Notes: a model not told the origin generated them from the sequence alone. 64,000 bases of DNA from a virus (IMGVR_UViG_2724679538_000004:32001-96000); one strand, 5' to 3'; numbered from the stretch's first letter, positions 11,166 to 58,685 are shown. Numbers and translations are program-made.

Positions 11166-11268
11166 TCTATCCAGTGGATAACTGGGATAAGTAAAACAGG
11201 CAAATGCAGATTAAGGTATGCCTAATGAGTTATCGTAGCATCGGCTAATAACTACTGAAAAAACGATT

Positions 11269-11913: not shown

Positions 11914-12167
11914 CCCTCCAGAACGCATAATGGCGTAGAGTTTAACTACGCCTCATCAAAATCGCTCTCATGACGTTCTACAGTGTCACTGTCTGATTTT
12001 TAGCCACATATAAAAGCAAAGTTACGCCATTTGGAATAGGTATATACTTACTTATAAATCTTGTATATTAAGGCGCTCGTTTCATTCCTAACATACCGTT
12101 ATGCATAGTTGTTTACCTTCTTATTACTCTTAAAATTTGTATCAAAATAACCACAAAGGAAAAACAC

Positions 12168-13253: not shown

Positions 13254-13468
13254 CCAGTAAATATTACGGAAGGATCAGATGGTGCACCGGGGCCATGACG
13301 CGTTTGCGCCGCGGCGAAGTCGTAATGGTTCAGAAATCGAACTTCAAAAATGATGCTCGTCTTTTGAAATATCTTAATAGCCTCGCCAGAAAAGGCCTGC
13401 TGGACAGCACTGATTTTCCTTCACACAAAGAATTTCGCATGACCGAAGAGCAAAAAAGTCGTTTCTGA
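13250..13468 (+). CDS. hypothetical protein
   Basis: 72-aa basic ORF between the SbcD-like and SbcC-like genes. Confidence 0.4.
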   Translation: MTSKYYGRIRWCTGAMTRLRRGEVVMVQKSNFKNDARLLKYLNSLARKGLLDSTDFPSHKEFRMTEEQKSRF

Positions 13469-13477
13469 GAGGCGTTA

Positions 13478-15394
13478 ATGAAATTTCTAAAACTCCAGGT
13501 AGAAAATTTTATGGCGCTGGCAAGCGCCGAAGTAGATTTAGACCAACGAGGCTTGGTACTCATTCAGGGTGTTAACAGCGGCGATTCTTCTGCGGCCAGC
13601 AATGGCGCTGGTAAATCTACTTTGATGAACAGCCTGATGTGGTGTCTGTATGGCGAAACTGCGCATGGAGTCAAAGGTGACGACGTGCTGTCTACAGGCT
13701 ACGAGAAAAACTGTCGTGTAATGGTGACTGTTGAGGATGAAGGCAAGAGATACGCGATCATTCGTCACCGTAAACACAAAGAGTTCAAGAACCGGCTGAT
13801 CATCCGCGGTGAAGACGGTGACATGACCAAAGGCAAGGACACGCTGACGCAGGAGTTCGTTGAACGTCTGATTGGTGCATCGAAAGAGGTGTTCATGGCG
13901 TCTATCTACGCCAGTCAGGAAGCAATGCCAGATCTACCTGGGATGTCCGACAAAAACCTCAAAACCATCGTAGAAGAGGCCGCTGGTGTAGACAGACTAA
14001 CACGCGCTTACGCCATCGCTCGTGAACGTGCTAATGCAGCTGCCGCACGAATGGATGTTGTCAAAACCAAAATAGAGTCGGCCATTTCCACTATTGAGTC
14101 CACACAGTCCGAAATTGATTCCGCAAAAGCCTCTTCTGAGTCATGGGAAAAAGAACGTTCTAAGCGCTATGACGATGCCCTGGCTGGGTTGGCCAGTGCC
14201 GAGGTCGAATTAACGGAAGTCGAGCTTGAGATCCGCACTCTTCCCGAGCAAATCCGTGATACCGAGAAGGCAATCGAAAGTGAGCGCAATAAATTGGCAT
14301 CAAAAGAAGAGCATGATGCTAAGTTGCTCAAAGTTCGAGGTGCGATAACTGACATTCGGTCCAGCATCAAAGCTACAGAAAGAAGCCAAAATGACGCGAT
14401 GAATCGTGCCCGTAGTTTCAAAAACAAAGCGGAAGAGGTCAACACTAAAGTTGGCGCTCCATGCCCAACGTGTGGCAAAGCTTACTGCGAGGAAGATTTG
14501 TCAACCGTGAAGGAAAGCTTCATCGAACAAGCGCGGCAGGAGATTGGGCAGGCGAAAACGCTGGCTGAGACTATGGCTAAGCACAAATCGCATCTTGAGA
14601 AAGCATTAGGCATCGAAGCTGCTCTCGTCAAAGCCACACCTGATGTGAGCGCCATCATTACCAGAATCGAAGAGCTTACGAAGCAACTTTCTTCTCTACG
14701 CCATCGGGAGAAAGAGGTTGCTGCTATTGAGTCGCTTGTTGCTCGTGCTCGTGCTGATGTTGAGCGGATCACCAAAGAGATTAACCCGTTTATTGCTCTT
14801 ATCGCGAGACACGAGGAAAGCCTTGCGACACGCAAATCAGCGTACAAGTCATTGAAAGACGAATTGAAGGCCATTCAGGAGCAATCATTGCTGTTAGAGA
14901 AAGCTCGTCAGGTTTATTCGCCAGCAGGGGTACGCTCTCACATTTTGACGTCAGTTACGCCCTTCCTTAATGCACGTACCGCTGAGTATCTCAATACGTT
15001 GTCTGACGGGAATATTACTGCTGAGTGGTCGACGATGGATGTCACTAAAAAAGGTGAGTATCGCGACAAATTCAACATTAGTGTGCAGAAGAAAGGTTCA
15101 AGTAAGTCGTTCCAGACCCTCTCTGGTGGTGAGAAGCGGAAGGTTCGCATTGCGTGTTCTTTGGCATTGCAAGATCTGGTCAGTAACCGGGCGAGTAAAA
15201 ACATCGATTTGTTTATCGGCGACGAAATTGACGATGCACTCGATACAGCCGGTCTTGAGCGCCTCATGGGTATTCTGGAGTCCAAAGCTCGCGAGCGGGG
15301 TACTGTGCTGATTATCTCCCATAAAGAGATGAAGTCATGGTTCCGGGAAACGATCACTGTCGAAGTTAAAGAGGGGCGCAGCTATGTCGTTTAA
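13478..15394 (+). CDS. SbcC/Rad50-like ATPase (T4 gp46-like)
   Basis: Walker A NGAGKST, central coiled coil with zinc-hook CPTCG, ABC signature LSGGEKRKV, Walker B DLFIGDEIDDALD. Confidence 0.85.
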   Translation: MKFLKLQVENFMALASAEVDLDQRGLVLIQGVNSGDSSAASNGAGKSTLMNSLMWCLYGETAHGVKGDDVLSTGYEKNCRVMVTVEDEGKRYAIIRHRKHKEFKNRLIIRGEDGDMTKGKDTLTQEFVERLIGASKEVFMASIYASQEAMPDLPGMSDKNLKTIVEEAAGVDRLTRAYAIARERANAAAARMDVVKTKIESAISTIESTQSEIDSAKASSESWEKERSKRYDDALAGLASAEVELTEVELEIRTLPEQIRDTEKAIESERNKLASKEEHDAKLLKVRGAITDIRSSIKATERSQNDAMNRARSFKNKAEEVNTKVGAPCPTCGKAYCEEDLSTVKESFIEQARQEIGQAKTLAETMAKHKSHLEKALGIEAALVKATPDVSAIITRIEELTKQLSSLRHREKEVAAIESLVARARADVERITKEINPFIALIARHEESLATRKSAYKSLKDELKAIQEQSLLLEKARQVYSPAGVRSHILTSVTPFLNARTAEYLNTLSDGNITAEWSTMDVTKKGEYRDKFNISVQKKGSSKSFQTLSGGEKRKVRIACSLALQDLVSNRASKNIDLFIGDEIDDALDTAGLERLMGILESKARERGTVLIISHKEMKSWFRETITVEVKEGRSYVV

Positions 15395-21465: not shown

Positions 21466-22569
21466 GTGTCTCTTCTATTGAATGGTGAGCATACGAATGG
21501 CCAGGTGGCTAATACATCGTATGCAAAAGTAATTGAAACGGTACTTAAATCAGGCGTGAAAGCAGGAGATCGGACTGGTACTGGCACTACGAGTGTTTCT
21601 TACGTTCCATCCTACTACTTACTGACTGGCGGCTCTGTTCCGTTGATTTCAGGGAAGGCTGTGAATTTAAAACCGCTTCTGGTTGAGCTGGAGTGGTATC
21701 TCAAAGGAACAGGCAACATCCAGTTCCTGAAAGACAATGGCGTCAAAATTTGGGATGCCTGGGCTGATGAAAATGGCGATTTAGGACCGGTTTATGGCAA
21801 GCAATGGCGTCGGTGGGAAGACACCCGCATCGTTAGCAATAGTGAGTATTTAAAAAAAATCGACACGTTGCGTGAGCGCGGATACAAGGTCGAGGGGTAT
21901 CTGGGCATAAGTGAAGATCGCGTTGTGTTGTCCCGTGAAATCGACCAGCTACAGCGTATCGTCGACACACTGCGTACCAATCCTACCGATCGTCGTATTC
22001 TGCTTAATGCGTGGAATGTTGGCGAGTTGGAAGATATGAAGTTGCCACCTTGTCACTTTGTCTTTTCTCTGTGGAGTCGTGAGCTGGACTTTAAGACCCG
22101 GCTGACGATGGCCACCGACATAGGCATCCAACACAATCGCTACGGCCACGAATCCATTTACACCCAGATGCTGTGTCTTCTGGAACGTGATGGAGGTATT
22201 ACAGAGAACATGCTGGACGAGCTGGGCATCCCGAAACGTATTCTGAACTCCTGTCTTGTGCAGCGTAGCGTCGATACTTTCGTTGGTATGCCTTTCAATA
22301 TCGCTGGTTATGGCATTCTCACTCACTTCCTCGCAAAGATCACCGGCCATATGGCTGGCGCATTCGTACATTTTGGTTTTGACGTTCATTTATACGACAA
22401 CCATATGGAAGGCGTTGAGGAACTGCTGAATCGCGAACCGCCAAAAGAGTCCGACCCTGTTGTCATCTTCCCGCATGAGTGGGCTGAGTTAGATGACTTC
22501 AAGTGGGAAGGTGTTCAGATTCTTGGCTATTCACCACTTCCGTGGATCAAGGTTCCAGTGGCGGTGTGA
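21466..22569 (+). CDS. thyA: thymidylate synthase (ThyA family) with two insertions relative to E. coli ThyA
   Basis: DRTGTGT, IWDAWADENGDLGPVYGKQWR, RRILLNAWNVGELEDMKLPPCHFVF and QRSVDTFVGMPFNIAGY are near-identical to canonical ThyA motifs; GTG start. Confidence 0.9.
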   Translation: MSLLLNGEHTNGQVANTSYAKVIETVLKSGVKAGDRTGTGTTSVSYVPSYYLLTGGSVPLISGKAVNLKPLLVELEWYLKGTGNIQFLKDNGVKIWDAWADENGDLGPVYGKQWRRWEDTRIVSNSEYLKKIDTLRERGYKVEGYLGISEDRVVLSREIDQLQRIVDTLRTNPTDRRILLNAWNVGELEDMKLPPCHFVFSLWSRELDFKTRLTMATDIGIQHNRYGHESIYTQMLCLLERDGGITENMLDELGIPKRILNSCLVQRSVDTFVGMPFNIAGYGILTHFLAKITGHMAGAFVHFGFDVHLYDNHMEGVEELLNREPPKESDPVVIFPHEWAELDDFKWEGVQILGYSPLPWIKVPVAV

Positions 22570-30206: not shown

Positions 30207-31022
30207 ATGTTTGAGATTTCAACACTCACTTCTACTACCAAAGGTTTTCACGATAAGCCTTCAATGACCAGTCAGGAGATTGCCGAGTTGGTTGGCAGTC
30301 GTCACGACAGCGTTAAACGCACCATAGAACGGCTGGTAAAAACTGGCGTCATTACTTTTCCACCAATGGTGGAAAAGCCCACCGCAGGTCGCCCTTCGAC
30401 GATGTACCTGTTTGAAGGCGATCAGGGCAAACGAGACAGCATTGTCGTAGTTGCGCAGCTGTCGCCGGAATTTACGGCACGTTTAGTTGATCGCTGGAGA
30501 GAGTTGGAGTCCATATATGGCGCAGCTGTGACTCCAGCGATACCTCGTACCTACAAAGAAGCTCTTGTTCATTTGCTTCATCAGGTTGAAGAAAACGAGC
30601 GCCTTGAAAAGAAAAATGAGGCTTTGGAAGTAGCGCTGTCAAATGCAAAGCCAAAAGCCATTCTGATGGATACGATTTGCGGAACCGCAAATGAACTTTA
30701 CGGGCTTAATGAAGCTGGGCGCATTCTCGGTACATCTGGTGTTGTTATGGGGGAATTTCTGGATTCTCTTGGCGACGTTTATGTAAAGCGCAAATACACA
30801 ACTATCAATCGTCAGTTCTTGAAGGCTTTCATTGACCGTGGCTATGGGAAAAATGTCGTGATCGGAACTGGACGTAACCAGGCAAAATTCACCTTTAAGG
30901 GGCTTTGCTTTGCGGCTGTGAAGCTGATTGCCGCAGGAAAAATAACCGTCAACTCCATCGAATATGAACCGTGCCGGGAACATGTTGAGCGTGAATTGAA
31001 GGGCGCAAAAAGTCTTCATTGA
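30207..31022 (+). CDS. phage antirepressor-like regulatory protein (Rha N-terminal domain plus KilA-C-like C-terminal domain)
   Basis: MTSQEIAELVGSRHDSVKRTIERL matches the Rha family N-terminus; GGAG RBS before ATG 30207. Confidence 0.65.
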   Translation: MFEISTLTSTTKGFHDKPSMTSQEIAELVGSRHDSVKRTIERLVKTGVITFPPMVEKPTAGRPSTMYLFEGDQGKRDSIVVVAQLSPEFTARLVDRWRELESIYGAAVTPAIPRTYKEALVHLLHQVEENERLEKKNEALEVALSNAKPKAILMDTICGTANELYGLNEAGRILGTSGVVMGEFLDSLGDVYVKRKYTTINRQFLKAFIDRGYGKNVVIGTGRNQAKFTFKGLCFAAVKLIAAGKITVNSIEYEPCREHVERELKGAKSLH

Positions 31023-31093
31023 TTTTCAACGTGGACACTCACCTTTTCATTGCGATTGTTCCCCTCTCCTAATCAGACACAATAAAGCCAATA

Positions 31094-31110
31094 AGAAAAC
31101 AACTTGTTTA
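31094..31110 (+). promoter_or_regulatory. promoter/operator motif AGAAAACAACTTGTTTA
   Basis: AAACAA-N-TTGTTT family member upstream of 31129. Confidence 0.45.
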
Positions 31111-31128
31111 ATCATCAAGGAAAAACAC

Positions 31129-31698
31129 ATGTGCGAGAAATGCAAAGCGATAGCTGATGAACAAAATGCCCTATTTGAAGAAATGGGTGCTAATGAGCTG
31201 GTAAAAATGTTAGCCATTCTTCGGGGAATAGAAGACGTTTCCATATTTGAGAGAGTGCTAACAGCACATAGTTTTAAGTCTACCTTTGAAGAGCCAATTC
31301 AGGTTGTCGCTTTGGCGCACCATTTTGGTGTTCATTATCTTGCTGAAAAAGAGCGAGCTAAAAAGTTGCAGGCGACTTTGGATATGGTGAGCGAGCCTCA
31401 ACGAACTCATGACGATAACAAGAGTGAGACGATTATTGCTGACAAAGATCGTGAAATTGCCGGACTCAAATCCTCTCTAACAATGTTGATGTCCGCAATG
31501 AACCTGGTGTCATCTCAGGCTGGCTTAAAAATGCCATCACTAAATAGCTATGATCCGATGGCAGTGCGCCAGCTGCTTGGTGCAATGGCTGATCAGCTTG
31601 ACGACACGAAAAATCGTATTGAAGATATGATGCGGGAACTTAGTCATCGTCATAATCTGACAACTCAGCCACATAAAGCTTTTCAAGTATCACATTAA
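31129..31698 (+). CDS. hypothetical protein
   Basis: 189-aa ORF with AAGGAAAAACAC RBS context. Confidence 0.55.
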   Translation: MCEKCKAIADEQNALFEEMGANELVKMLAILRGIEDVSIFERVLTAHSFKSTFEEPIQVVALAHHFGVHYLAEKERAKKLQATLDMVSEPQRTHDDNKSETIIADKDREIAGLKSSLTMLMSAMNLVSSQAGLKMPSLNSYDPMAVRQLLGAMADQLDDTKNRIEDMMRELSHRHNLTTQPHKAFQVSH

Positions 31699-42889: not shown

Positions 42890-43766
42890 TTGTTTATACC
42901 AATAAGAAAACAACTAAATAACAGATCAACGAAATGTCAATGCTTTCGCCCGATTTGGTCTATAAAATTGACGTTTTCACACATCACTTCTTATACCCGC
43001 AATCCTACGCAGCAGACAGCGCCACAGCGTCCAATTTTCACCACAGATGACCCAACAACTACCAATAAAAACACACGCTCAAAATCGCTCCCGTTGCGTT
43101 ACACAACCATATAAACAACTTGTTTTCAGGCATAACAAAACAACTAAATAACACATATGCCATTCCCCAAAACAACCAACCTCTTTATGGCAGGCTACCG
43201 AAAAGACCCACCTCTTCTTCCCAGGCTACCGGACAACCAACCTAACTTTCACAGGCAATTCGAAACCTCCATACGCGCGATACCCACGACACGCCATTCC
43301 CCAAATAGCGAAGAACCACCGAAACCCCAACGAAGCTTGTAACCGCAAGGATTTCCTCAATCCCAAAAGACACGAAACAGAACATTCGAGGGAAACGCCA
43401 TTACCCAATACACGAATAACTACAAAAGCCTTTCACGCACTCCATACAAGCAACTCAAACACAATAACGAAAGGAATCGCCCACCTGCCATTACTCCATA
43501 CACGGAGAAGAACAATCACCAAAACGTCGAGAACAACCCAGAGAAGAACCACCGCAAAACGAACGAAACCATATAAACCGACAGAGAGAACTACACACCC
43601 AATTCACCAACAGAAATAGTCGCCGTATAGAACGTTCAGGGAGGAGTGAGTATTAACGCCTATAGAGAGCTTGAGACAGATAAAACACGAAGAAAACACA
43701 ACATGTATAACGGAGAAGCCAGGTATGTATAAGTGGGGAGTGGAGGAGGGGTGTCGCCTCCTTTTT
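42890..43766 (+). ncRNA. A+C-rich, G/T-poor tract with ~100-bp-spaced GCCATT(A/C)CCCAA-type repeats; candidate long non-coding RNA(s) ending at hairpin GGAGG-loop-CCTCC plus T5 (43742-43766)
   Basis: Strong strand-asymmetric composition; promoter-like AAAACAACTAAATAACA at about 42913 and 43138; only low-complexity ORFs without RBS. Confidence 0.3.
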
Positions 43767-43830
43767 CGTATTTATTCAACTCCTGATTTTATCCCCCCGT
43801 AAAACCCCTACGGTCAGCCTTCGGTCCATA

Positions 43831-43970
43831 CAGGGAAAAGGTTGCATCCCGCTACAGAAACGGCTGGGTTGCCTTCGGGGAACGGCTGGAGGTTTTCAGG
43901 GAAACGGTCGAGTTGCCTGTGTGGGTTTCGGGAAAAGGCTCGATGCCGGTTCAGGAACGGTGGCGTACCG
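43831..43970 (+). repeat. array of about six ~21-bp direct repeats with core (C)AGGGAAA(A/C)GG / GGGAACGGCT (GGA-rich)
   Basis: cagggaaaaggttgcatccc, cagaaacggctgggttgcc, ggggaacggctggagg, cagggaaacggtcgagttgcc, cgggaaaaggctcgatgcc, caggaacggtggcgtaccgg. Confidence 0.6.
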
Positions 43971-44295
43971 GTATAGCGAGAGGGAGAGTTGCGGCTACCC
44001 ACCTGTAATGTGCGGGAAGAAGGGAGACTCTCACGTATAGGCGAACCTACTTCCCGCTGGATTCCCTCTGAATGCCCAGCTACAGCGTAATTGTGCCAGA
44101 CAGTCCGCGGGTCACAATCGATTTCAGTAGGTTTTCGGGGAGAGGATTATTCTGCCCACCAGCTCCCTGCGGCCAGTAAATCAGAATAATGTAAAAAGTG
44201 CCCACGGTACTGAACCTGAAAAGTCACTACTAAAACTGCATTTACCGGAATAAAACTCTTTTTCACCTATGTGTTATTGCGATAATAACACCAAC

Positions 44296-44313
44296 GAGAA
44301 AACAAGTTGTTTA
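44296..44313 (+). promoter_or_regulatory. promoter/operator motif GAGAAAACAAGTTGTTTA
   Basis: Palindromic AAACAA-N-TTGTTT core immediately upstream of RBS GGAG. Confidence 0.45.
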
Positions 44314-44323
44314 CGGAGTGGTA

Positions 44324-44635
44324 ATGAATACCTCATTGGTTCTTGGTCTTGCAGAAGGTCAGGACAGAAAAGAAAAGCCAACTTTGATGGGACACCTCAC
44401 ATTGTTGGATATCGTAGCGAACGGAACTTCTATTCGACTGTTTCGTGAAAAAGCTATTACCTTCGACAAAGTGAATTTAACGCGCTATGTGATGGTTGTT
44501 CGTCGCCAGCGAGGAAGAGGGTGGATGTCAGTTCAGAAAATGTGGCCAGAGGACCAGCTTGAACTGGCACTGATGGAAGTGAACCGCGTAGCCCAGCAAG
44601 AAATCCAACGAGCTTCTGTTCAGGCAGTGGCTTAA
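44324..44635 (+). CDS. hypothetical protein
   Basis: GGAG 5 nt before ATG 44324. Confidence 0.5.
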   Translation: MNTSLVLGLAEGQDRKEKPTLMGHLTLLDIVANGTSIRLFREKAITFDKVNLTRYVMVVRRQRGRGWMSVQKMWPEDQLELALMEVNRVAQQEIQRASVQAVA

Positions 44636-51262: not shown

Positions 51263-51559
51263 TTACGGTAGCCTGCTAAGGATTTCGTCCAGATCTTCCT
51301 TAGTCAAATTTGAGTTTTCATAAATCTGCATAATCCTTTCGCGAGCTTTAGCAGAAGCTTTTGCAGTTGCGCCCAAAGAAGAAGCAATTTTGTCAAACTC
51401 GGCCATCGGCATCTTTTCAAGTACAACATTGATGATTTCAGACTTTGACAGTTTTAGGTTTTTGTCTTTCAGTTTGGCTTTAAATTTTGTTAGTTTGTTG
51501 TTCGCCTGTTCAGTTAATGCGACCTGACAATACGTTGTTTTTTTCTCGCTCATAGTCAA
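51263..51559 (-). CDS. hypothetical protein
   Basis: 98-aa ORF immediately downstream of the helicase gene on the same strand. Confidence 0.45.
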   Translation of the reverse strand: MTMSEKKTTYCQVALTEQANNKLTKFKAKLKDKNLKLSKSEIINVVLEKMPMAEFDKIASSLGATAKASAKARERIMQIYENSNLTKEDLDEILSRLP

Positions 51560-53115
51560 TCTCGTTTCAAAATCCCAAAATCAAAAGTACCACCTACTGG
51601 CAAAACGCCTTCCGCAAAACCTGGTGTTGTATCGATAATATGCTTCCGTTCGTAAGAATGAGACAGTAAGTATTTATTACTAACGTCAATAAAATCACTG
51701 ATAAAGCACACATTGGCTTGATTTTTCTTGGCTCGAAGGCCGCGACCAACACGTTGCCTCATCTCAACTTCGGCCTTTCCACCACCAGCCAGAATCACTG
51801 CCCCAACACTCGGTACATCAACACCAACATCCAGAATAGTCGACCCTATTAAAACATCTATTTCGCCGGACGCTAAACTATTCAATTTTGCTTGCCTTGT
51901 CGATTGGTTGGACTCGCCATAAATGAAGTCAACTTTCAGACCGGACTCCTTCATCATTTCCATTAAGATCTGCCCGTGGCGCTTAAGGCGAACTAGAGTC
52001 ATACAGTTCAGAGAATGCTTTTTATACATTAACGCTTCTCGAACTATGGCCTCGTTACGACTTAGATTATATACGATCCCCAACTGATAAGCCTTTTGGT
52101 AGGCGGTACTCATGCCAACCCTAAAATTTAGATGCTTATTAGCGAGTTCAGCCTTGATTCGTGCCTCGTCTGGAATGTAGGCAATTTTATGATAGAGGAA
52201 GTATGGTTTGGCCAAAATACCTTTATCAATTAGATATTTTTCTGTGACCTTGATTTCTATGCGACCAGCCACGGCCATCAGGCGCATGTTGGCTTCGGTA
52301 GAGTCCTTCATGAAAGGGGTTGCAGTCAGCGCAAGACGATAATCTGCGTTCACACAAAGACGGGCGATATCATAGAAGTTGGAGCCGGAAGACTCATGGG
52401 CTTCTTCAAGAATGAGAAGAGAAACGCTAGAAAGAAAGCGCTTTACCAAATCTCGGCGTTTTAGATGGTAGTTTTTCTTATCTGCCGATGCGTCTCGTGG
52501 CGGCTCTTCAAGGAAGCTTGCCAATGTCTGTACCGTGGCGACGTTGATATGACGTGAAACCTGAAACTCACCAGATCCAATTACTCCAACTTTCTGACCT
52601 TTTAGCCATGATTCGCCATTTTCTGCACGGTAATCGATAGATTTCTGAAAGTTTTCTGCCATTTGATACATCAGAACAGAACGAGTGGTTAAAAATAGCG
52701 TCATGCGGCCAATTCTTGCAGCTGCTTTACATGCAACGTTAGATTTCCCGCCACCAGTTGCGATCTGCGCAATCATCATCCCTTCTCGTACTAGAGTTTC
52801 TACCGTCTGATCCTGATATGCATAATCTGGGTTATATGGGAAAGGGTTAACAACTGGGTTTGGTTTCCCAAGTGCAGGGGCTTTGTCCTTTCGAATATGT
52901 AAGCATTTGATGCCTGCTTTATTCAGATTCGAGGCTACAGGCTTCGCGAATCCAGCGGGGAACGAGTTTTTGCTCCAGTTGAACATGGTGCTTGTGCCTT
53001 TCCAATCACCAGCTTCAACTTCATAGCTCAGCATCTCTTGCACGAGTCGTTTTACATTGTCATCAGCGCCAGAAATCAGTGCGTTTACAGCATTAGATAC
53101 AATCCGAACTGTCAT
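51556..53115 (-). CDS. superfamily 2 DNA helicase (DEAD/DEAH-box, type III restriction res-like)
   Basis: Walker A TGGGKS (motif I), motif II LLILEEAHE, C-terminal helicase domain. Confidence 0.75.
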   Translation of the reverse strand: MTVRIVSNAVNALISGADDNVKRLVQEMLSYEVEAGDWKGTSTMFNWSKNSFPAGFAKPVASNLNKAGIKCLHIRKDKAPALGKPNPVVNPFPYNPDYAYQDQTVETLVREGMMIAQIATGGGKSNVACKAAARIGRMTLFLTTRSVLMYQMAENFQKSIDYRAENGESWLKGQKVGVIGSGEFQVSRHINVATVQTLASFLEEPPRDASADKKNYHLKRRDLVKRFLSSVSLLILEEAHESSGSNFYDIARLCVNADYRLALTATPFMKDSTEANMRLMAVAGRIEIKVTEKYLIDKGILAKPYFLYHKIAYIPDEARIKAELANKHLNFRVGMSTAYQKAYQLGIVYNLSRNEAIVREALMYKKHSLNCMTLVRLKRHGQILMEMMKESGLKVDFIYGESNQSTRQAKLNSLASGEIDVLIGSTILDVGVDVPSVGAVILAGGGKAEVEMRQRVGRGLRAKKNQANVCFISDFIDVSNKYLLSHSYERKHIIDTTPGFAEGVLPVGGTFDFGILKRD

Positions 53116-53179: not shown

Positions 53180-53878
53180 ATGGATTGTATCAGCAAAATG
53201 GATGTGAAAATCACGATTTTGCAGGTTGAAGTGGCCAACCTGCGTCCAAATTCATGGAACACCAACTCAGTAGGTGCTCAAAACTTCGAAAAACTGAAAG
53301 GATCTATCGAAAAATTGGGCTTTTTTAAGCCTATTTTGGCGCGTGAGCTTAATGACGGCATTTATGAAATCCTCGGCGGCGAACATCGCTGGCGTGCGGC
53401 CATTGAACAAGGAATTTCAACGGTTCCAGTGCTATCGGTTGGCAAAATTAGCGACTTAGTAGCGAAACAGATGTCACTCGTGGACAACGAACGCTACGGC
53501 GAAGACGATCAGATTGCTTTGCAGCGCTTTATTGAAGAAATTCAGTCTGAACTCGATTACCAGTTGTCAGAAATTGCCCCTTATGACGATGAAATTTCTA
53601 TGGTTCTTGCAAAAGAGGCTGCAATTGACCTCGAAGCTCTTGAGGCACTGTCGCGTGGGGAGGATGAGCCTGTAGATACTGACAAGCGTGAAAAAATCGA
53701 ACGCGCCGGAACAGATCATCAGACCATGCGTTTCAAAGTTACCTTTGATGCGTCAGATCGTGTTGCCGACACAATAAAAAACATCATCAAAGAACAAGCA
53801 ATTAACACTGGCAATGAAATGGAGAACGCTGGTGAGGCTTTGGTGTGGCTGGTCGACTACTACAAGGAGCGTATGTAA
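53180..53878 (+). CDS. ParB N-terminal domain (ParB/sulfiredoxin-fold) protein
   Basis: ILGGEHRWRAA resembles the ParB box II GxxRxxA motif. Confidence 0.6.
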   Translation: MDCISKMDVKITILQVEVANLRPNSWNTNSVGAQNFEKLKGSIEKLGFFKPILARELNDGIYEILGGEHRWRAAIEQGISTVPVLSVGKISDLVAKQMSLVDNERYGEDDQIALQRFIEEIQSELDYQLSEIAPYDDEISMVLAKEAAIDLEALEALSRGEDEPVDTDKREKIERAGTDHQTMRFKVTFDASDRVADTIKNIIKEQAINTGNEMENAGEALVWLVDYYKERM

Positions 53879-54546
53879 TGACCAAAAAGTTTGAAATCGT
53901 ATATCGCAATCCGGCAGATCTCATTCCTTACGAGATGAATGCCAAAAAGCATGATGAACAGCAGATCCGAGATCTGGCCGCAGCCATTAAAAAGCGCGGA
54001 TTTGACCAGCCAATTACGGTCGATAAGAACGACGTAATTATTACTGGCCACGGCCGCCGTGAGGCTGCAATTTTTGCTGGGCTTGAGCGCGTACCAGTTA
54101 TTGTTCGCGATGATCTGAGTGATGACGAGGTTCGTGCGAAGCGCCTTGAAGATAACCGACTCGCCAGCATTGATTACGATGCAATTAAGCTACAGAAAGA
54201 GCTTGAGTCGCTTGTTCTGGACGATATCGAGGTTTTCGGCTTTGAAGAGCGAGAGTTGAATGTTCTCGTTGGCAGCATGACTGAGGAAATGGATACCGAC
54301 TCGTTAGTTATCGATCTGGGCGAAGAAACCAAACGACAGAAGGATGAGCACACCGAAATCAGTCGTGAAGTTGCAGCGGAAGAAGTGCGCGTTGTCGACG
54401 TATTGGGCTTTAAAACGCTCCCTGCTGGCTCTGCCATTGTTGTTGGTGATTTGCTTGCCCACATGGAAGAAATGACTGGAGAAAGCGGGGTAGACGCATT
54501 TGTGGCATATGCGGAGAAGATCTCTTCCGGGGAGATGACTGCATGA
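53878..54546 (+). CDS. second ParB N-terminal domain protein
   Basis: ITGHGRREAAIFAGL ParB-box-like motif; AGGAG RBS before ATG 53878 (TAATG overlap with previous stop). Confidence 0.6.
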   Translation: MTKKFEIVYRNPADLIPYEMNAKKHDEQQIRDLAAAIKKRGFDQPITVDKNDVIITGHGRREAAIFAGLERVPVIVRDDLSDDEVRAKRLEDNRLASIDYDAIKLQKELESLVLDDIEVFGFEERELNVLVGSMTEEMDTDSLVIDLGEETKRQKDEHTEISREVAAEEVRVVDVLGFKTLPAGSAIVVGDLLAHMEEMTGESGVDAFVAYAEKISSGEMTA

Positions 54547-55181
54547 GCAAATACATCATCAACGTATCGTTTCAGACTCGCGTAAATAAAACCACGCGCA
54601 CGTTGGAAATCGCCGAGTCGTTCGGGCTTGGCCTTGACGAAAAAGAGTGGACGCTTTACGACAATCTGGAGCTGGAAGTTAAGCAGGGCGATGTAGTGTA
54701 CATCACCGGCCAATCCGGTTCAGGCAAATCAGTTGTGCTGCGCGAACTGCAACGCCAGATGAAAGATGAAGGGCTTTCTGTGGCCTCCATCGATGATTTT
54801 ACATTCGACAATGATGTTAACGTCATCGACCAGCTAGGGAAAACAACCAGCGAAGCGCTGGGGCTGCTGTCTATGGCCGGATTGAATGACGCCTATCTCT
54901 TTGTGCGCAAACCTTCCGAAATGTCTGACGGTCAGAAATATCGTCTCAAGATCGCCAAGCTAATTGAGTCAGGCGCAAAAGTGTGGGCTGCGGACGAGTT
55001 CGGTGCTGTTCTTGATCGTGTAACGGCGCAGGTCGTGGCGTCCAATCTACAGCGTGCAGCCCGTAAAGTTGGGGCGACGGTGATGGTTGCGACAACTCAT
55101 GAGGACCTTAAAAACGCTCTTCGTCCTGATATGCAGATCACTAAGCACTATAAAGAGCGAGTGAAGGTGGAATATGCCTGA
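54543..55181 (+). CDS. stand-alone ABC-type ATPase
   Basis: Walker A GQSGSGKS, signature-like MSDGQKYR, Walker B VWAADEFGAVLD, H-loop TTHE. Confidence 0.7.
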   Translation: MSKYIINVSFQTRVNKTTRTLEIAESFGLGLDEKEWTLYDNLELEVKQGDVVYITGQSGSGKSVVLRELQRQMKDEGLSVASIDDFTFDNDVNVIDQLGKTTSEALGLLSMAGLNDAYLFVRKPSEMSDGQKYRLKIAKLIESGAKVWAADEFGAVLDRVTAQVVASNLQRAARKVGATVMVATTHEDLKNALRPDMQITKHYKERVKVEYA

Positions 55182-55428
55182 TTTGAAGATTGTAGAGCTG
55201 AAGCCATCGAAAGAGGATGACAATAACAATGTTGAGGTCATCCGCTTGCTGGAAGAAGCACTCCAGTACGCCAGAGAAGGCAAATCCCAGAGTCTGGCGC
55301 TGCTGATGATCAATAACGACGGCAGTGTCATGGATTGCTGGCATAACGGTGGGCGTCCTTACGTCATGGTTGGGGCGATGGAATCGCTTCGCCTGGACTT
55401 CATCAATGCCAATATAGAGCGCAGGTGA
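55174..55428 (+). CDS. hypothetical small protein
   Basis: 84-aa ORF overlapping both neighbours. Confidence 0.45.
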   Translation: MPDLKIVELKPSKEDDNNNVEVIRLLEEALQYAREGKSQSLALLMINNDGSVMDCWHNGGRPYVMVGAMESLRLDFINANIERR

Positions 55429-56324
55429 TCGACATGACAGACATCATCATCAAACGCTACCGCCTTGAAGAGTTTCCGCGTCATCTGGACTTTCTGGAGC
55501 GAATGACTGTCACAAAGGGGACTGTAGAGGACTGGCACGCTCTTAAGTCGCTTCACTACAAAACTGACGGCAAACCTTTCGCACCAACTTATTATCGCTG
55601 CGAACTGGATGGCCGTCTGGTGGGCGTCGTGGTAATGGCTTACCCGAAACTTTTGCTGGCACCTCGCCATCGCATGTTTCCTAAGTTGAAACCAACCACT
55701 AACACCACCGTGGCGAACCAGTACTGGGGGCGATACGTGAATAACAACTTTGCGGTGATCAGTCGCTCAGTTGTGGATACTCAGTACCGTGGCGTTGGCG
55801 TCTCTTATCGAATGATTAACCTGGTTAGCAGGATGCATGATCGGCCAATAATTGAGATCCAGTCCTCAATGAGCAAATACAATCCCTTCGCCATGAAAGC
55901 AGGGTTCAAGTTCATCCGCCCTGAGCGACCGAAGAGCTATGAAAGTGCACTGCGTGTGTTCCAGCGCCATTTCCGCTCCGACCCGGGAGATAACGAGGCG
56001 ATCGTCAAAGAGTTGTTCGCAATGAGCGAGTCCCGTCGTCGCCGTGCACTGCGTGATCTGGTGGCGGACTACCACAAGAACAGTTCCCTGGCAAAAGCTG
56101 GGCGGAATCGTGGCACGACGATTCAGGACATTGCCGACAGTCTCGTGGACGAGGCCAGCATAGTGAAGCTGCTCAAGGACATTCACAACCTGAGCTTTAC
56201 GTCTCCGTTGTATGGTGTGTACCGAAACCCTGACTTTGGCCGTCGACTGCCTGATTCGCTGCCACTGCTGGCATTCGACAAACAACCTTTGGATAAACCG
56301 TTAGAAATTGCTTTACCGGCATAA
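55425..56324 (+). CDS. GNAT-like acetyltransferase-fold protein with C-terminal extension (tentative)
   Basis: VVDTQYRGVGVSYRMINLV fits GNAT motif A (R-G-x-G); GTG start 55425 or ATG 55434. Confidence 0.45.
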   Translation: MIDMTDIIIKRYRLEEFPRHLDFLERMTVTKGTVEDWHALKSLHYKTDGKPFAPTYYRCELDGRLVGVVVMAYPKLLLAPRHRMFPKLKPTTNTTVANQYWGRYVNNNFAVISRSVVDTQYRGVGVSYRMINLVSRMHDRPIIEIQSSMSKYNPFAMKAGFKFIRPERPKSYESALRVFQRHFRSDPGDNEAIVKELFAMSESRRRRALRDLVADYHKNSSLAKAGRNRGTTIQDIADSLVDEASIVKLLKDIHNLSFTSPLYGVYRNPDFGRRLPDSLPLLAFDKQPLDKPLEIALPA

Positions 56325-56333
56325 GGATTTGCC

Positions 56334-56600
56334 ATGACGTTAACCGATAAACAAAAGGACATTATCAAAACGCTCAATCTCGGTTATGAACGAGGACATC
56401 TACTTGATCTGGACGAATTGCTTGAAGTTTTGCCCTACAAAACATCTAAGCAAAGTATCCAGTTCTCTATTCGCGCACTGATCAAAAAAGGGCTGGTGGA
56501 GAAAGGAAACACTCGCCAGCGCAGTGATACTCGATATCACCGTCGTACTCTTGGGTTAACTACTTTAGGTCGAGCACGAGCCAAATTACTGGTGATGTAA
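56334..56600 (+). CDS. small basic protein, probable winged-helix DNA-binding protein
   Basis: 88-aa ORF with GGAT RBS; basic C-terminus. Confidence 0.4.
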   Translation: MTLTDKQKDIIKTLNLGYERGHLLDLDELLEVLPYKTSKQSIQFSIRALIKKGLVEKGNTRQRSDTRYHRRTLGLTTLGRARAKLLVM

Positions 56601-56703
56601 TAGGTCTGGGGTGCTTATTTAAAGCCTGCGTCTGTATATATAAATAATAAATAACTTATTAAATATATACGGAAGCAGGTTCAATAAGACACGCCCAGAC
56701 CTA
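56601..56703. other. nested inverted-repeat element (outer TAGGTCTGGG / CCCAGACCTA; inner CCTGCGTCTGTATATAT / ATATATACGGAAGCAGG) around an AT-rich core, directly upstream of terS; candidate packaging or terminase-binding site
   Basis: Inverted repeats seen directly; position between the ParB-like operon and the small terminase subunit. Confidence 0.35.
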
Positions 56704-56716: not shown

Positions 56717-56758
56717 GAAAACAAGTTGGTTAGTGAATGCAATAAACAAGTTGTTTTA
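56717..56758 (+). promoter_or_regulatory. two copies of the AAACAAGTTG(T/G)TT promoter/operator motif upstream of terS
   Basis: AGAAAACAAGTTGGTTA and AATAAACAAGTTGTTTTA. Confidence 0.45.
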
Positions 56759-56796
56759 GAGCGCATGGACGCGCTCTGTGTGTTTTAGAGGGATCT

Positions 56797-57429
56797 ATGA
56801 CTGTCGAAAAAGACGAGGGAAAAACTCGCCTGACACCAGCGGAGTGGGCCGAAGCAGAAGCCAAATGGACGTCAGGCGAATATACACTCTCAAAGCTGGA
56901 GGAAGAGTACGGCATTCGCCGTGAAACACTCTCCAGACATTTCAAAAAGCGAGGATTGGAGAAAGGCGCAGACTCTGTTGGGAAGATGGTTCGCGAGTCT
57001 CTCAAATCTGACGCAGAGCTTCGTGCTAAAGCCCGTGCAGAAAAGATAGAAGAACGTCGTACACGTTATGACGGCTGGGCATATGCCTTGGGGCAGATGG
57101 TGATGGTCGAAGTCACTACTGCTAAACGTGAGGGAAAACCTTTAGGGGGGATTGAGGATTCTCTTAAGAGCTTACAGAGAGCAAGTAATACCCTTGCAAA
57201 ATGCTTTGAAATTTCGTCCAAAGCGTTGGGCATGGATCATGCGGAAAATGACGAGGAAGAAATTCCTAACCTGGTATTTGGCGAACTTACGCCTTCTCAG
57301 GTGGCGAAATTACGTCAGGAAGACGATGAGCCTGAAATCATCGATGACGAATTGCTTGAGGCACTAGAGGAAGAAGCTCTTAGCGAACTGGACGCCAGTG
57401 AGGAGGAGAGCGAAGGGGGAGATAAGTAA
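56797..57429 (+). CDS. terminase small subunit (putative)
   Basis: N-terminal HTH-like TLSKLEEEYGIRRETLSRHF, acidic C-terminus; immediately upstream of the large terminase. Confidence 0.6.
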   Translation: MTVEKDEGKTRLTPAEWAEAEAKWTSGEYTLSKLEEEYGIRRETLSRHFKKRGLEKGADSVGKMVRESLKSDAELRAKARAEKIEERRTRYDGWAYALGQMVMVEVTTAKREGKPLGGIEDSLKSLQRASNTLAKCFEISSKALGMDHAENDEEEIPNLVFGELTPSQVAKLRQEDDEPEIIDDELLEALEEEALSELDASEEESEGGDK

Positions 57430-58685
57430 TGTCGATCCCGTCTTCTCTGAGTCTTGTGCAGCTGCATTCTGGGCAGATGAAGGTGTTCCAGTCGCCACAT
57501 CGATTTAAGGTGGTATGCGCAGGTCGTCGCTGGGGTAAGTCCAGGTTGTCGATCTCAACCATAATTCGTGCGGCAGCAAAGAGCAAAAAGCAAAGAGTCT
57601 GGTACGTAGCGCCGACCTATCAAATGGCACGCCAGATTCTGTGGGATGACCTACAGGAAGTTCTGCCTCGCAAGTGGGTTCGTAAAAAGAACGACACCAC
57701 GATGACAATCGTGTTGAAGAACGGTTCTGAGATCGCCCTCAAAGGTGCTGATAAACCTGACACTCTGCGCGGCGTAGCGTTGCATTTTGTAGTGCTTGAT
57801 GAATTTCAGGATATGAAGGCTGATACCTGGTACAAGGTATTACGACCTACTCTTTCATCGACACGAGGCGGTGCACTGATCATTGGTACGCCAAAAGGAT
57901 TCTCGGAATTTCACAAACTGTGGACCATCGGCCAGAACATTGAGCTGCAAAGAAAAGGACAGTGGAAGAGTTGGCAGTTTGTTACCGCTGATTCTCCGTT
58001 TGTGCCTACTGCCGAAATCGAAGCGGCAAAGAACGATATGGACCCGAAGTCCTTTGCGCAGGAATACCTGGCCAGCTTCGAAAACATGTCAGGTCGTGTT
58101 TATTACCCGTTTGATCGTAACGTGCATGTGAAGCCACTCCAGTTCAATCCGAAACTACCTATTTGGGTTGGGCAGGATTTCAACATAGACCCGATGTCTT
58201 CTGTAATTTTGCAACCACAGCCAAACGGTGAACTATGGGCAGTTGATGAGTTGGTACTCTTCTCATCAAACACGGCAGAAGTGTGTGACGAACTGGAACG
58301 ACGCTATTGGCGATGGAAATCGCAGGTGACGATTTTTCCTGACCCCGCTGGGGCATATCGTCAGCACGCGCGAGGTGAATCAGATGTCGATATCTTTAAA
58401 GAAAAGGGATTCTTACGTGTTGACTATTCGAAGAAGCACCCGCCGATTGCAGATCGTGTGAATGCTGTAAACCGTATGCTGATGAGCGCATCAGGTGAAG
58501 TTCGTCTCTATGTCGATCCTAAGTGCAAGCACCTCATAGATTCTCTTGAAAAGGTTATCTACAAGCCCGGATCTCGTGACATGGATAAGTCAGGTGGGGT
58601 TGAGCACAGCGCAGACGCATTGGGCTACCCAGTTCATCGTAGGTATCCGGTGAAAAATCGTGTTATTCTTGGTGGATCTAGATAG
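57429..58685 (+). CDS. terminase large subunit
   Basis: Walker A-like VCAGRRWGKS, Walker B VVLDEF, C-terminal nuclease-like region; ATG overlaps terS stop. Confidence 0.8.
   Translation: MSIPSSLSLVQLHSGQMKVFQSPHRFKVVCAGRRWGKSRLSISTIIRAAAKSKKQRVWYVAPTYQMARQILWDDLQEVLPRKWVRKKNDTTMTIVLKNGSEIALKGADKPDTLRGVALHFVVLDEFQDMKADTWYKVLRPTLSSTRGGALIIGTPKGFSEFHKLWTIGQNIELQRKGQWKSWQFVTADSPFVPTAEIEAAKNDMDPKSFAQEYLASFENMSGRVYYPFDRNVHVKPLQFNPKLPIWVGQDFNIDPMSSVILQPQPNGELWAVDELVLFSSNTAEVCDELERRYWRWKSQVTIFPDPAGAYRQHARGESDVDIFKEKGFLRVDYSKKHPPIADRVNAVNRMLMSASGEVRLYVDPKCKHLIDSLEKVIYKPGSRDMDKSGGVEHSADALGYPVHRRYPVKNRVILGGSR

What the first reader, a model, noticed from the sequence alone, without database searches (positions are those of the whole stretch)
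53180..56600. Operon of two ParB-fold proteins, a minimal ABC ATPase, a small protein, a GNAT-like protein and a winged-helix protein just upstream of terS
Six tightly coupled genes (overlapping stops and starts) encode two different ParB N-terminal-domain proteins, a stand-alone ABC ATPase with all canonical motifs but no transporter or coiled-coil partner domain, an 84-aa protein, a GNAT-fold protein and a small basic protein. ParB/sulfiredoxin-fold proteins combined with ATPases occur in DNA-modification and DNA-targeting systems as well as in partition. The combination with a GNAT-like enzyme is not one I recognise as a described system. It may be a packaging-associated module, a partition-like system, or a DNA-modification or defence-related system.
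Basis: partly seen in the sequence, partly recalled or inferred. Interest (0 to 1): 0.6.

Follow-up and report, generated by a model that had tools for sequence, protein, structure and literature searches.

The report
ParB-guided ABC–GNAT module beside terminase
The six genes are real and form a conserved core module of SSU5-type phage-plasmids, in which ParB-fold proteins, a small ATPase and an acyltransferase work as one machine; it most likely marks or prepares phage DNA before packaging rather than partitioning the plasmid, though its function has never been tested.

Summary
Six co-directional, overlapping or abutting genes at 53180-56600 encode two ParB/Srx-fold proteins, a 212-aa stand-alone ABC ATPase with all motifs, an 84-aa protein, a 296-299-aa protein and a small basic winged-helix protein. 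They lie just upstream of terS, TerL and portal. The fifth protein fails Pfam's GNAT cut-off, but its predicted structure has a GNAT fold.

The window is an SSU5/pHCM2-type phage-plasmid. The block helicase(-)|ParB1|ParB2|ABC|GNAT|(wHTH)|terS|TerL|portal is kept in 28 of 28 complete loci from alpha-, beta- and gammaproteobacteria, and in predicted-virulent Nickievirus phages. The 84-aa gene is accessory.

Natural fusions (ABC+GNAT, ParB+ABC+GNAT) show that the core is one machine. In small environmental phages, ParB|ABC|GNAT lies directly before TerL. In sister phages the same ParB domain is instead fused to a DNA methyltransferase at that position. Other ABC-GNAT proteins are fused to PolB, lie next to Pol III alpha, or overlap TerL in an archaeal virus.

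Best reading (confidence about 0.4): a ParB-assisted, ATP-driven acyltransferase acting on phage DNA, analogous to ParB-MTase, ParB-dependent T-dioxygenases and DpdB/DpdA. Partition and defence are unlikely. I found no paper describing the module, and its function is untested.

The parts
53180..53878 (+). ParB1: a 232-aa acidic (pI 4.55) ParB-CTPase-fold protein of the more canonical type, with Box II GEHRWRAA
   Evidence: Pfam ParB_N E=4.5e-14 and phrog_723 E=7e-78. It aligns to Spo0J, ParB and Noc structures. No ParA-binding motif. Orthologue present in 28 of 28 complete loci.
53878..54546 (+). ParB2: a 222-aa acidic (pI 4.56) ParB/Srx-fold protein of the methyltransferase-associated type, with Box II GHGRREAA
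54543..55181 (+). Stand-alone ABC-type ATPase (nucleotide-binding domain only, 212 aa) with Walker A, signature, Walker B and H-loop intact
   Evidence: Pfam ABC_tran 50.2 bits. PHROG hits: phrog_293 E=3e-58 and phrog_11143 (an ABC+GNAT fusion family) E=7e-24. Homologous to the ABC part of natural ABC-GNAT and ParB-ABC-GNAT fusions.
55174..55428 (+). Accessory 84-aa protein (phrog_796) of unknown function, inserted at the ABC/GNAT junction
   Evidence: No Pfam, NCBIfam or PADLOC hit. Present in 38 of 80 close IMG/VR loci and 4 of 30 genome loci, and absent in phage Cyrano. Other lineages carry unrelated small genes at the same junction.
55425..56324 (+). GNAT-fold acyltransferase with a C-terminal helical domain of about 130 aa; basic (pI 9.9); the likely start is the ATG at 55434
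56334..56600 (+). Small basic (pI 10.3) winged-helix DNA-binding protein of 88 aa
   Evidence: phrog_900 E=5e-44. Weak wHTH hits in four libraries. An orthologue was detected in 22 of 28 complete loci.
56601..56703 (.). Imperfect palindrome of about 100 bp with G+C-rich outer arms and an A+T-rich centre; a candidate cis site (loading, operator or packaging site)
   Evidence: 41-nt arms, 71% complementary. An equivalent long palindrome at the same position beats all 30 same-length controls in 10-11 of about 30 related loci, although the sequences differ. The SSU5 and Cyrano records are opened inside it.
56745..56778 (+). AACAAGTTGTT motif followed by a terminator-like hairpin, immediately before the terS ribosome-binding site; it separates the module from the terS-TerL genes
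   Evidence: The motif is enriched about 10-fold in the window and always sits upstream of + strand genes. Hairpin at 56757-56778.
56797..58685 (+). Context: the terS-like gene (56797-57429, phrog_867) and TerL (57429-58685)
   Evidence: Invariant downstream neighbours in 27-28 of 28 complete loci.
51556..53115 (-). Context: divergently transcribed SF2 (DEAD/ResIII, UvsW-like) helicase. It is a conserved neighbour in the SSU5 supergroup but absent next to the minimal module of small phages.
   Evidence: Pfam ResIII, DEAD and Helicase_C. Present in 28 of 28 complete loci. No equivalent next to the module in L092-L112.

Best explanation
The core genes (ParB1, ParB2, ABC ATPase, GNAT, probably with the winged-helix protein) encode one DNA-directed machine. 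It belongs to the phage's lytic programme, not to plasmid maintenance.

Proposed mechanism:
- The basic GNAT subunit uses an acyl-CoA donor to acylate a target on phage DNA, most likely a nucleobase.
- The ABC ATPase, which is fused to the GNAT in many relatives, supplies ATP-driven DNA distortion or clamping.
- The acidic ParB-fold proteins act as NTP-switch activators or adaptors that license the enzyme on double-stranded DNA.
- The winged-helix protein and the adjacent palindrome may provide site recognition.
- The modified DNA is then packaged by the terminase encoded next door and would be protected from host restriction.

Shown here: the gene set, the folds, the functional linkage through fusions, the conserved position and the replacement by a DNA methyltransferase. 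Inferred: the substrate (DNA base), the acyl donor, the role of ATP and the biological benefit.
For: **The parts are one unit.**
- ABC+GNAT fusions of 450-500 aa are numerous.
- ParB+ABC+GNAT triple fusions exist, with all catalytic motifs intact (P0190, P0219, P0224, P0244).
- phrog_11143 spans both halves.

**It is a phage core function.**
- Synteny is invariant with terS, TerL and portal in 28 of 28 complete loci, down to 37-46% identity.
- The block is present in Nickievirus phages, which are predicted to be virulent.

**A methyltransferase takes its place.**
- 17 of 23 small-phage loci have ParB|ABC|GNAT, in most of them just before TerL.
- Six sister loci carry the same ParB domain fused to an N6_N4 DNA methylase, and in three of those TerL follows directly.
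- Between L098 and L100 the ParB domain is 66% identical and TerL 62% identical.
- ParB2's next-best PHROG relatives include the ParB domain of ParB-MTases (phrog_498, E=1.3e-31).

**There is experimental precedent for ParB partners of DNA-modifying enzymes.**
- Phage T-dioxygenases need a co-encoded ParB-like activator on dsDNA. Their gene clusters often contain ParB (27%) and terminase (19%) genes (PMC13229309; 10.1101/2025.08.14.668559).
- DpdB is a ParB-like ATPase needed for DpdA to insert preQ0 into DNA (as summarised in PMC12839542).

**GNATs can act on nucleic acids.**
- Mu Mom is among the structural matches and is the top viral hit.

**Other links to DNA.**
- The GNAT has pI 9.9 and the wHTH protein pI 10.3.
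- ABC-GNAT is fused to PolB, lies next to Pol III alpha, sits in a DnaB/gyrase replication module, and overlaps TerL in a Nitrososphaerota virus.
Against: - There is no direct evidence that SSU5-type virion DNA carries an acyl modification, and I found no report of one.
- The structural similarity is generic to GNATs. The best solved matches are small-molecule and protein N-acetyltransferases, and Mom is not distinguished from them.
- The ABC domain resembles transporter-type nucleotide-binding domains more than the DNA-associated SMC/Rad50 class.
- The ParB proteins are acidic, and no confident DNA-binding domain was resolved. Residues 100-165 of the ParB2 model have low confidence.
- Displacement by a methyltransferase shows equivalence of position, not of chemistry.
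- The element already encodes Dam-type and other methyltransferases.
Confidence: 0.4

Rival explanations
1. The machine is a DNA-tracking protein acetyltransferase. ParB, PolB or terminase delivers ABC-GNAT along viral DNA, where it acetylates DNA-bound proteins. Targets could be host nucleoid proteins such as HU or H-NS (Alba in archaea), or phage proteins. This would clear or remodel the DNA for replication and packaging.
For: Most characterised GNATs, and the closest solved structures (NatA/Naa10, RimI, Gcn5, Pat), act on proteins or small molecules. The module is fused or adjacent to DNA-tracking enzymes. An archaeal fusion carries a TFIIB repeat.
Against: Replacement by a DNA methyltransferase at the same position points to DNA as the substrate. 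From general knowledge, I know of no ATPase-coupled protein GNAT, whereas ATP-coupled nucleic-acid GNATs exist (NAT10/TmcA, cited in PMC8989533). No candidate target protein is conserved across bacterial and archaeal hosts.
Confidence: 0.2
2. The module is a packaging-initiation accessory. The ParB proteins and the wHTH protein assemble on the palindrome next to terS and mark or organise the DNA for the terminase. ABC-GNAT would act as a regulatory or structural partner, for example by acetylating TerS or TerL.
For: The module is invariably adjacent to terS and TerL in three unrelated virus groups. A large palindrome recurs between the wHTH gene and terS. The SSU5 and Cyrano records are opened inside it.
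Against: ABC-GNAT also sits in replication modules, far from any terminase, and is fused to PolB. L004 keeps the module and the palindrome without a terminase next to it. No product resembles a known packaging protein. The point at which the records are opened may be arbitrary; Nican01 is simply opened at the TerL start codon.
Confidence: 0.15
3. The module regulates late genes or counters silencing. The ParB-fold proteins (like VirB or KorB) and the wHTH protein would control transcription of the adjacent late operon.
Against: This does not explain a catalytically intact ABC-GNAT fused to ParB, the PolB fusions or the methyltransferase displacement. The AACAANTTGTT motif occurs before many genes but not before the module itself.
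Confidence: 0.08
4. The two ParB proteins and the ATPase form a plasmid partition system for the prophage-plasmid. This is how two ParB copies have been read in related phage-plasmids.
For: ParB1 resembles chromosomal ParB, Spo0J and Noc N-terminal domains. The element is a low-copy plasmid prophage. Two ParB copies in the related Acinetobacter group were described as partition genes (PMC7969092), and parB is used as an SSU5 marker gene (10.1101/2025.09.12.675607).
Against: The ATPase is an ABC nucleotide-binding domain, not a ParA; the CbiA/ParA Pfam model is below its cut-off. Neither ParB has a ParA-binding motif. SSU5 has a ParA-like gene followed by a small gene about 30 kb away. The block occurs in predicted-virulent phages and in small phages, always with the GNAT.
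Confidence: 0.03
5. It is an accessory defence or anti-defence cassette, unrelated to the phage's own DNA metabolism.
For: ParB/Srx and ABC ATPase domains occur in Dnd, Dpd and other conflict systems (PMC10853773, PMC12839542). The ABC ATPase gives weak PADLOC hits to mad3 and mad8.
Against: There are no specific PADLOC hits for five of the six proteins. The block is a syntenic core kept across three proteobacterial classes, not a variable island. Only the 84-aa gene behaves like an accessory gene.
Confidence: 0.04

Closest known systems
ParB-DNA methyltransferase fusions of phages and prophages (ParB_N + N6_N4_Mtase; phrog_498)
   Same: ParB2 is homologous to their ParB domain (E=1.3e-31). 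In small phages the same ParB clade carries either the methyltransferase or ABC+GNAT at the same position before TerL.
   Different: The enzyme here is an ATPase-coupled GNAT rather than a SAM-dependent methyltransferase. There are two ParB paralogues and they are separate genes.
ParB-dependent phage thymine dioxygenases (5mYOX clade E with a ParB activator; PMC13229309)
   Same: A short ParB-fold protein is co-encoded with a DNA-acting enzyme, often near terminase genes. Those ParBs lack an obvious DNA-binding domain, and none was confidently resolved in the ParB2 model here.
   Different: The partner enzyme has a different fold and chemistry. That system has no ABC ATPase. The dependence of the GNAT on ParB is untested.
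DpdA/DpdB of the 7-deazaguanine (Dpd) DNA-modification system
   Same: A ParB-like NTPase assists an enzyme that modifies bases in double-stranded DNA, with ATP hydrolysis required (as summarised in PMC12839542).
   Different: DpdA is a transglycosylase. Dpd is a cellular restriction-modification-like system. None of the six proteins gave a Dpd-specific hit in PADLOC or NCBIfam; the only hits to defence models were weak, generic P-loop ATPase matches of the ABC protein.
'ABC-type ATPase fused to a predicted acetyltransferase domain' (the MK0520 / COG2401-type annotation; phrog_11143)
   Same: The ABC and GNAT genes here are the two halves of that fusion family.
   Different: Here the halves are split into two genes, with an accessory gene between them, and are embedded with two ParB proteins and a wHTH protein. 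I found no experimental characterisation of the family.
Nucleic-acid GNATs: phage Mu Mom, PaMx11 gp48 (5-NmdU acetyltransferase), TmcA/NAT10
   Different: No sequence-level membership in any of these families was found. The ATPase here is an ABC domain, not a helicase-type domain. The genes I scanned showed no 5-hmdU hypermodification domains, only ordinary ThyA and DHFR genes; I did not scan the whole window.
ParABS partition systems
   Same: ParB1 shares the ParB-CTPase N-terminal domain with the Box II arginine.
   Different: There is no adjacent ParA and no ParA-binding motif. No HTH domain was resolved confidently. The genes also occur in virulent phages.

Membership tests
ParB/Srx (ParB-CTPase fold) superfamily | ParB_N domain detected above the curated cut-off | tested here: met
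   ParB1 scores 52.7 bits and ParB2 35.2 bits against a 26.3-bit cut-off.
ParB/Srx (ParB-CTPase fold) superfamily | Box II GxxRxxA motif with the phosphate-binding arginine, and the ParB/Srx fold | tested here: met
ParB/Srx (ParB-CTPase fold) superfamily | Binding or hydrolysis of CTP or another NTP | not testable with these tools
   This needs biochemistry. Published surveys show that the fold can bind CTP, ATP or GTP (PMC12704722).
ParABS partition system | Adjacent ParA (Walker-type, deviant) ATPase | tested here: not met
   The adjacent ATPase is ABC_tran. The CbiA/ParA model scores 19.7 bits against a 25.4-bit cut-off. SSU5's ParA-like gene is about 30 kb away.
ParABS partition system | N-terminal ParA-binding motif [LFI]G[KR]G[LFI] in ParB | tested here: not met
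   Absent in both ParB proteins (motif as defined in PMC12704722).
ParABS partition system | Restricted to elements that need segregation | tested here: not met
   The block is present in predicted-virulent Nickievirus phages and in small environmental phages.
ABC ATPase superfamily | Walker A, signature (LSGGQ-like), Walker B (DE) and H-loop | tested here: met
   GQSGSGKS, SDGQ, AADEF and TTHE are readable in the translation. ABC_tran scores 50.2 bits.
ABC transporter | Partner transmembrane domain or gene | tested here: not met
   The protein is 212 aa, nucleotide-binding domain only. None of the six operon products matches a membrane-protein family; I ran no transmembrane prediction. The database name 'ABC transporter' looks like a mis-annotation.
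GNAT acyltransferase superfamily | Sequence profile above the curated cut-off | tested here: not met
   Acetyltransf_10 scores 14.4 bits against 23.6. Homologous minimal or fused forms do pass: L095 36.3 bits, L100 40.2 bits, P0236 25.6 bits. They are linked to this protein by hhalign at E=2.3e-5.
GNAT acyltransferase superfamily | GNAT fold and the pyrophosphate-binding motif A (Q/R-x-x-G-x-G/A) | tested here: met
GNAT acyltransferase superfamily | Acyl-CoA-dependent transfer activity | not testable with these tools
   This needs an enzyme assay.
ABC-ATPase+acetyltransferase fusion family (MK0520/COG2401-type label; phrog_11143) | Homology of both halves to the fused proteins | tested here: met
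   In phrog_11143 the ABC protein matches profile positions 2-184 and the GNAT protein positions 205-252. The A1 profile hits the C-terminal halves of proteins that contain ABC_tran.
ParB-assisted DNA-modification modules (ParB-MTase, 5mYOX+ParB, DpdAB) | ParB-fold protein fused or adjacent to the enzyme, as a conserved unit | tested here: met
   Triple fusions and invariant adjacency.
ParB-assisted DNA-modification modules (ParB-MTase, 5mYOX+ParB, DpdAB) | The enzyme modifies DNA, and a modified base is present in the DNA | not testable with these tools
   The only evidence is indirect: positional replacement by a DNA methyltransferase.
Mom family (phage Mu DNA methylcarbamoylase) | Sequence-level family membership | tested here: not met
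Known anti-phage defence systems (PADLOC) | Specific model hits for the components | tested here: not met
   The only hits were the generic ParB N-terminus of MTase_II, weak P-loop ATPase hits and a wHTH.

The most novel reading that the evidence does not exclude
ABC-GNAT would be a new class of ATP-driven nucleic-acid acyltransferase. It would place an acyl mark (for example an N-acetylated base) on viral DNA, delivered by interchangeable DNA-tracking partners: ParB-fold switches before packaging, or PolB/Pol III during replication. Virions of SSU5/pHCM2/pMT1-type phage-plasmids, Nickievirus and many uncultured bacterial and archaeal viruses would then carry a DNA modification that has not been described.
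Probability: 0.3. Interest if true: 0.85.

Novelty: new variant of a known kind. Interest (0 to 1): 0.62.

Why it matters
- **Prevalence.** The module is a conserved core of a very common family of about 110-kb phage-plasmids in Escherichia, Klebsiella, Salmonella, Yersinia and other genera (772 PLSDB records). Relatives occur across the proteobacteria and in archaeal viruses.
- **Annotation.** The genes are routinely mislabelled 'ABC transporter' or 'partition protein'.
- **If it modifies DNA.** It would add an ATPase-coupled acyltransferase to the short list of enzymes that act on DNA bases. It would extend the newly recognised role of ParB-fold proteins as partners of DNA-modifying enzymes. 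It could also help explain how these elements evade restriction.
- **If it acetylates proteins instead.** It would be a virus-encoded, DNA-guided acetyltransferase.
- **Testability.** Either outcome can be tested with cultured phages such as SSU5, Cyrano and nickie.

Tried and rejected
**Literature searches that found nothing on the module**
- 'ABC-type ATPase fused to' and 'COG2401' returned no papers.
- Searches combining ParB, ABC ATPase and GNAT returned only Dnd and BREX comparative papers that do not describe this module.

**Searches that gave no useful hit or no answer**
- The GNAT-family profile against PDB sequences gave nothing significant.
- PADLOC and NCBIfam gave no specific family for the 84-aa, GNAT or wHTH proteins.
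- The afdb50 fold library was unavailable.
- The first IMG/VR scan with the GNAT alignment returned only close relatives. I repeated it with triple-fusion proteins as the query.
- Context look-ups for the triple fusions P0244 and P0190 gave only short contigs. One archaeal member could not be looked up.

**Leads that did not hold up**
- I tried to use the Nican01 record to locate the physical genome ends near the module. The record is simply opened at the TerL start codon, so it says nothing about the ends.
- The sigma-70 promoter scan found no more sites than chance (4 against 5.4 expected) and none in the 64-nt divergent region before ParB1.
- I looked for a 5-hmdU hypermodification pathway that a GNAT could finish. 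The ten genes I scanned showed only ordinary ThyA, DHFR, Dam and HD-domain hits.

**Readings considered and rejected**
- Partition, defence cassette and ABC transporter; the reasons are given under the rival explanations and membership tests.

Full report
**What is there**

The window region 53180-56600 carries six + strand ORFs with overlapping or nearly abutting ends (junctions read).
- ParB1 is at 53180-53878.
- ParB2 is at 53878-54546. Its true ATG overlaps the ParB1 stop as TAATG; the GTG at 53845 given by the ORF lister is an upstream extension.
- The ABC ATPase is at 54543-55181 (ATGA overlap).
- An 84-aa gene is at 55174-55428 (8-nt overlap).
- The GNAT-like gene is at 55425-56324 (GTGA overlap). 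Homologues begin at the ATG at 55434.
- An 88-aa gene is at 56334-56600, after a 9-nt spacer containing AAGGA.

A terS-like gene (56797), TerL (57429) and portal (58720) follow. An SF2 helicase (51556-53115) is transcribed divergently upstream.

**Identity of the element**

The stretch is 85-92% identical in DNA to Salmonella phage SSU5 and to Escherichia phages Cyrano and CMS-2020a. It matches 772 plasmid records, mostly from Klebsiella, Escherichia, Enterobacter, Yersinia and Salmonella. The window is therefore an SSU5/pHCM2-type phage-plasmid. All six products fall in existing PHROG families: 723, 930, 293, 796, 886 and 900.

**Domain checks**

- Both ParB proteins pass Pfam ParB_N. They align to solved ParB, Spo0J and Noc structures through Box II.
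- ParB1 (GEHRWRAA) is close to the chromosomal type. ParB2 (GHGRREAA) lacks the Box II glutamate. After its own family, ParB2 is closest to the ParB domain of ParB-methyltransferase fusions (phrog_620 and phrog_498; PADLOC MTase_II).
- The ATPase is a bare ABC nucleotide-binding domain with all motifs.
- The fifth protein fails Pfam's GNAT cut-off (E=0.038).
- The 88-aa protein gives weak but concordant winged-helix hits in four libraries.
- The GNAT (pI 9.9) and the wHTH protein (pI 10.3) are basic. Both ParB proteins are acidic (pI 4.55 and 4.56) and lack the ParA-binding motif.

**Conservation**

Distant homologues of the GNAT protein (40-46% identity) lie in the same block. Examples are Pseudomonas phage nickie, Rhizobium phage RHEph10 and an Ectothiorhodospira contig.

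A scan of one genome per species gave 30 loci. All 28 that are complete keep helicase(-)|ParB1|ParB2|ABC|GNAT|terS|TerL|portal, and the wHTH gene was detected in 22. They come from alpha-, beta- and gammaproteobacteria, many on contigs of about 100-118 kb.

The 84-aa gene is present in only 4 of these 30 loci and in 38 of 80 close IMG/VR loci, and it is missing in Cyrano. Other lineages carry unrelated small genes at the same ABC/GNAT junction. It is therefore an accessory insertion.

Nickievirus phages are predicted to be virulent (PMC11256456). SSU5 has a ParA-like gene followed by a small gene about 30 kb away. The block is therefore part of the conserved phage backbone, not the plasmid partition system. 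This differs from how two ParB copies have been read in related phage-plasmids (PMC7969092).

**One machine**

A profile of the GNAT family found 993 representative proteins.
- Many are 450-500 aa with the match in the C-terminal half, and Pfam places ABC_tran in the N-terminal half. These correspond to the 'ABC-type ATPase fused to a predicted acetyltransferase' label that annotators already use.
- Four proteins of 660-700 aa are ParB+ABC+GNAT triple fusions with all catalytic motifs intact.
- Other fusions add family B DNA polymerase, a DnaA-like N-terminus or a TFIIB repeat. One has an intein in the ABC domain.

**Where the module sits in other viruses**

With the triple fusions as the query, 23 IMG/VR loci were retrieved.
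- Seventeen have ParB|ABC|GNAT. There the GNAT passes Pfam's cut-off. In most of these loci TerL and portal follow after a short gap.
- Six have the same ParB domain fused to an N6_N4 DNA methylase. In three of them TerL follows directly.
- L098 (ParB-MTase) and L100 (ParB+ABC+GNAT) share 66% identity in the ParB domain and 62% in TerL. ABC+GNAT and a DNA methyltransferase therefore replace one another at the same place in related phages.
- hhalign links the minimal GNAT to the SSU5-type family (E=2.3e-5, shared W-x6-HY and motif A).
- In a Nitrososphaerota virus, an ABC-GNAT fusion overlaps the end of TerL.
- Elsewhere the fusion sits in phage replication modules: beside Pol III alpha, among DnaB and gyrase genes, or fused to PolB between primase-polymerase and RecA-like genes.

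**Interpretation**

The recurrent partners are ParB, DNA polymerases, a DnaA-like domain and terminase. All act on DNA.

Published work shows that phage thymine dioxygenases of one subclass need a co-encoded ParB-like protein to act on dsDNA, and that such clusters often include ParB and terminase genes (PMC13229309; 10.1101/2025.08.14.668559). DpdB is a ParB-like ATPase required by DpdA (as summarised in PMC12839542). ParB fusions to methyltransferases are typical of phages, and a bacterial ParB-acetyltransferase fusion binds GTP (PMC12704722). GNATs can act on nucleic acids: PaMx11 gp48 acts on DNA and NAT10 acts on RNA with ATP (PMC8989533). Mu Mom is among the structural matches.

I therefore favour a ParB-assisted, ATP-driven acyl transfer to phage DNA before packaging (confidence about 0.4). 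This is an inference. No modified base has been shown, the fold similarity is generic, and the ABC domain is of the transporter type.

The rivals are:
- acetylation of DNA-bound proteins (0.2);
- a packaging-initiation accessory role (0.15);
- late-gene regulation (0.08);
- a defence cassette (0.04);
- partition (0.03).

**Cis elements**

A palindrome of about 100 bp with an A+T-rich centre follows the wHTH gene (56601-56703). A comparable palindrome at the same position exceeds all 30 same-length controls in 10-11 of about 30 related loci, although the sequences differ. It is retained in L004, where no terminase follows. The SSU5 and Cyrano records are opened inside it.

Between the palindrome and terS lie an AACAAGTTGTT motif and a terminator-like hairpin. 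No sigma-70-like promoter was found before ParB1.

**Novelty**

The genes are catalogued and abundant, and the ABC-GNAT fusion has long carried a descriptive label. I found no paper that describes the ParB+ABC+GNAT module, its linkage to terminase or its function. I rate it a new variant of a known kind (ParB-assisted DNA-modification modules), with a real chance that the chemistry is new.

Noticed in passing
window 7433, 19145, 29543, 31098, 41502, 43114, 44301, 45207, 46774, 56745: The inverted-repeat motif AACAANTTGTT (extended form A[AT]GAAAACAAnTTGTTTA) occurs at 10 exact sites. All are intergenic, all face the same way, and all lie 6-52 nt upstream of a + strand ORF start. There are 23 matches at one mismatch or fewer against 1.9 expected. 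It looks like a phage-specific promoter or operator element. It precedes terS but not the ParB operon.
   Followed up: partly
window 56601-56703; L006 8133-8213; L003 11175-11289; L004 11176-11261; L130 10157-10262; L133 10070-10181: A long palindrome with an A+T-rich centre recurs between the wHTH gene and terS across the SSU5 supergroup. Its sequence differs between lineages. The SSU5 and Cyrano linear records are opened inside it.
   Followed up: partly
window 56757-56778: A terminator-like G+C-rich hairpin with a T run sits immediately before the terS ribosome-binding site. The stem is conserved in SSU5. It may be an attenuator or a boundary between the module and the packaging genes.
   Followed up: no
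window 55174-55428; L003 8961-9999; L005 5646-5981; L006 6405-6907: The junction between the ABC and GNAT genes is a hot spot for unrelated small inserted genes: the 84-aa gene here; Phage_gp49_66-, unknown- and RyR-domain genes in L003; DUF2829 in RHEph10.
   Followed up: partly
window 43000-44600: An ORF-poor, A/C-rich stretch (AT skew 0.32, GC skew -0.17) contains degenerate dispersed repeats such as GCCATTCCCCAAA x3, plus several AACAANTTGTT sites. Its function is unknown. Tandem Repeats Finder found no arrays.
   Followed up: partly
window 21466-22569: The thymidylate-synthase homologue is unusually long (367 aa), and its Pfam match is split into two stretches, which suggests an insertion.
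   Followed up: no
L150 (Halomonas sulfidaeris chromosome) 5018-13908: The whole block, from the helicase to portal, is present as fragmented ORFs. It looks like a decayed chromosomal copy.
   Followed up: no
L125 10944-13193; L135 11024-13540: The TerL ORFs are about 750-840 aa instead of about 420 aa, which suggests an intein or another insertion.
   Followed up: no
L115/L116 8001-11783; L152 866-6415; L151 6001-8544; P0154; P0214: ABC-GNAT proteins in other viruses are fused to family B DNA polymerase, lie next to Pol III alpha, carry an intein in the ABC domain, carry a C-terminal TFIIB repeat (in a Nitrososphaerota/Thaumarchaeota MAG), or carry a DnaA-like N-terminus.
   Followed up: partly
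SSU5 record 30497-31521 (L120 27498-28522): SSU5 has a ParA-like gene followed by a 96-aa gene. This is probably the real partition locus of the family. It lies outside this window.
   Followed up: no
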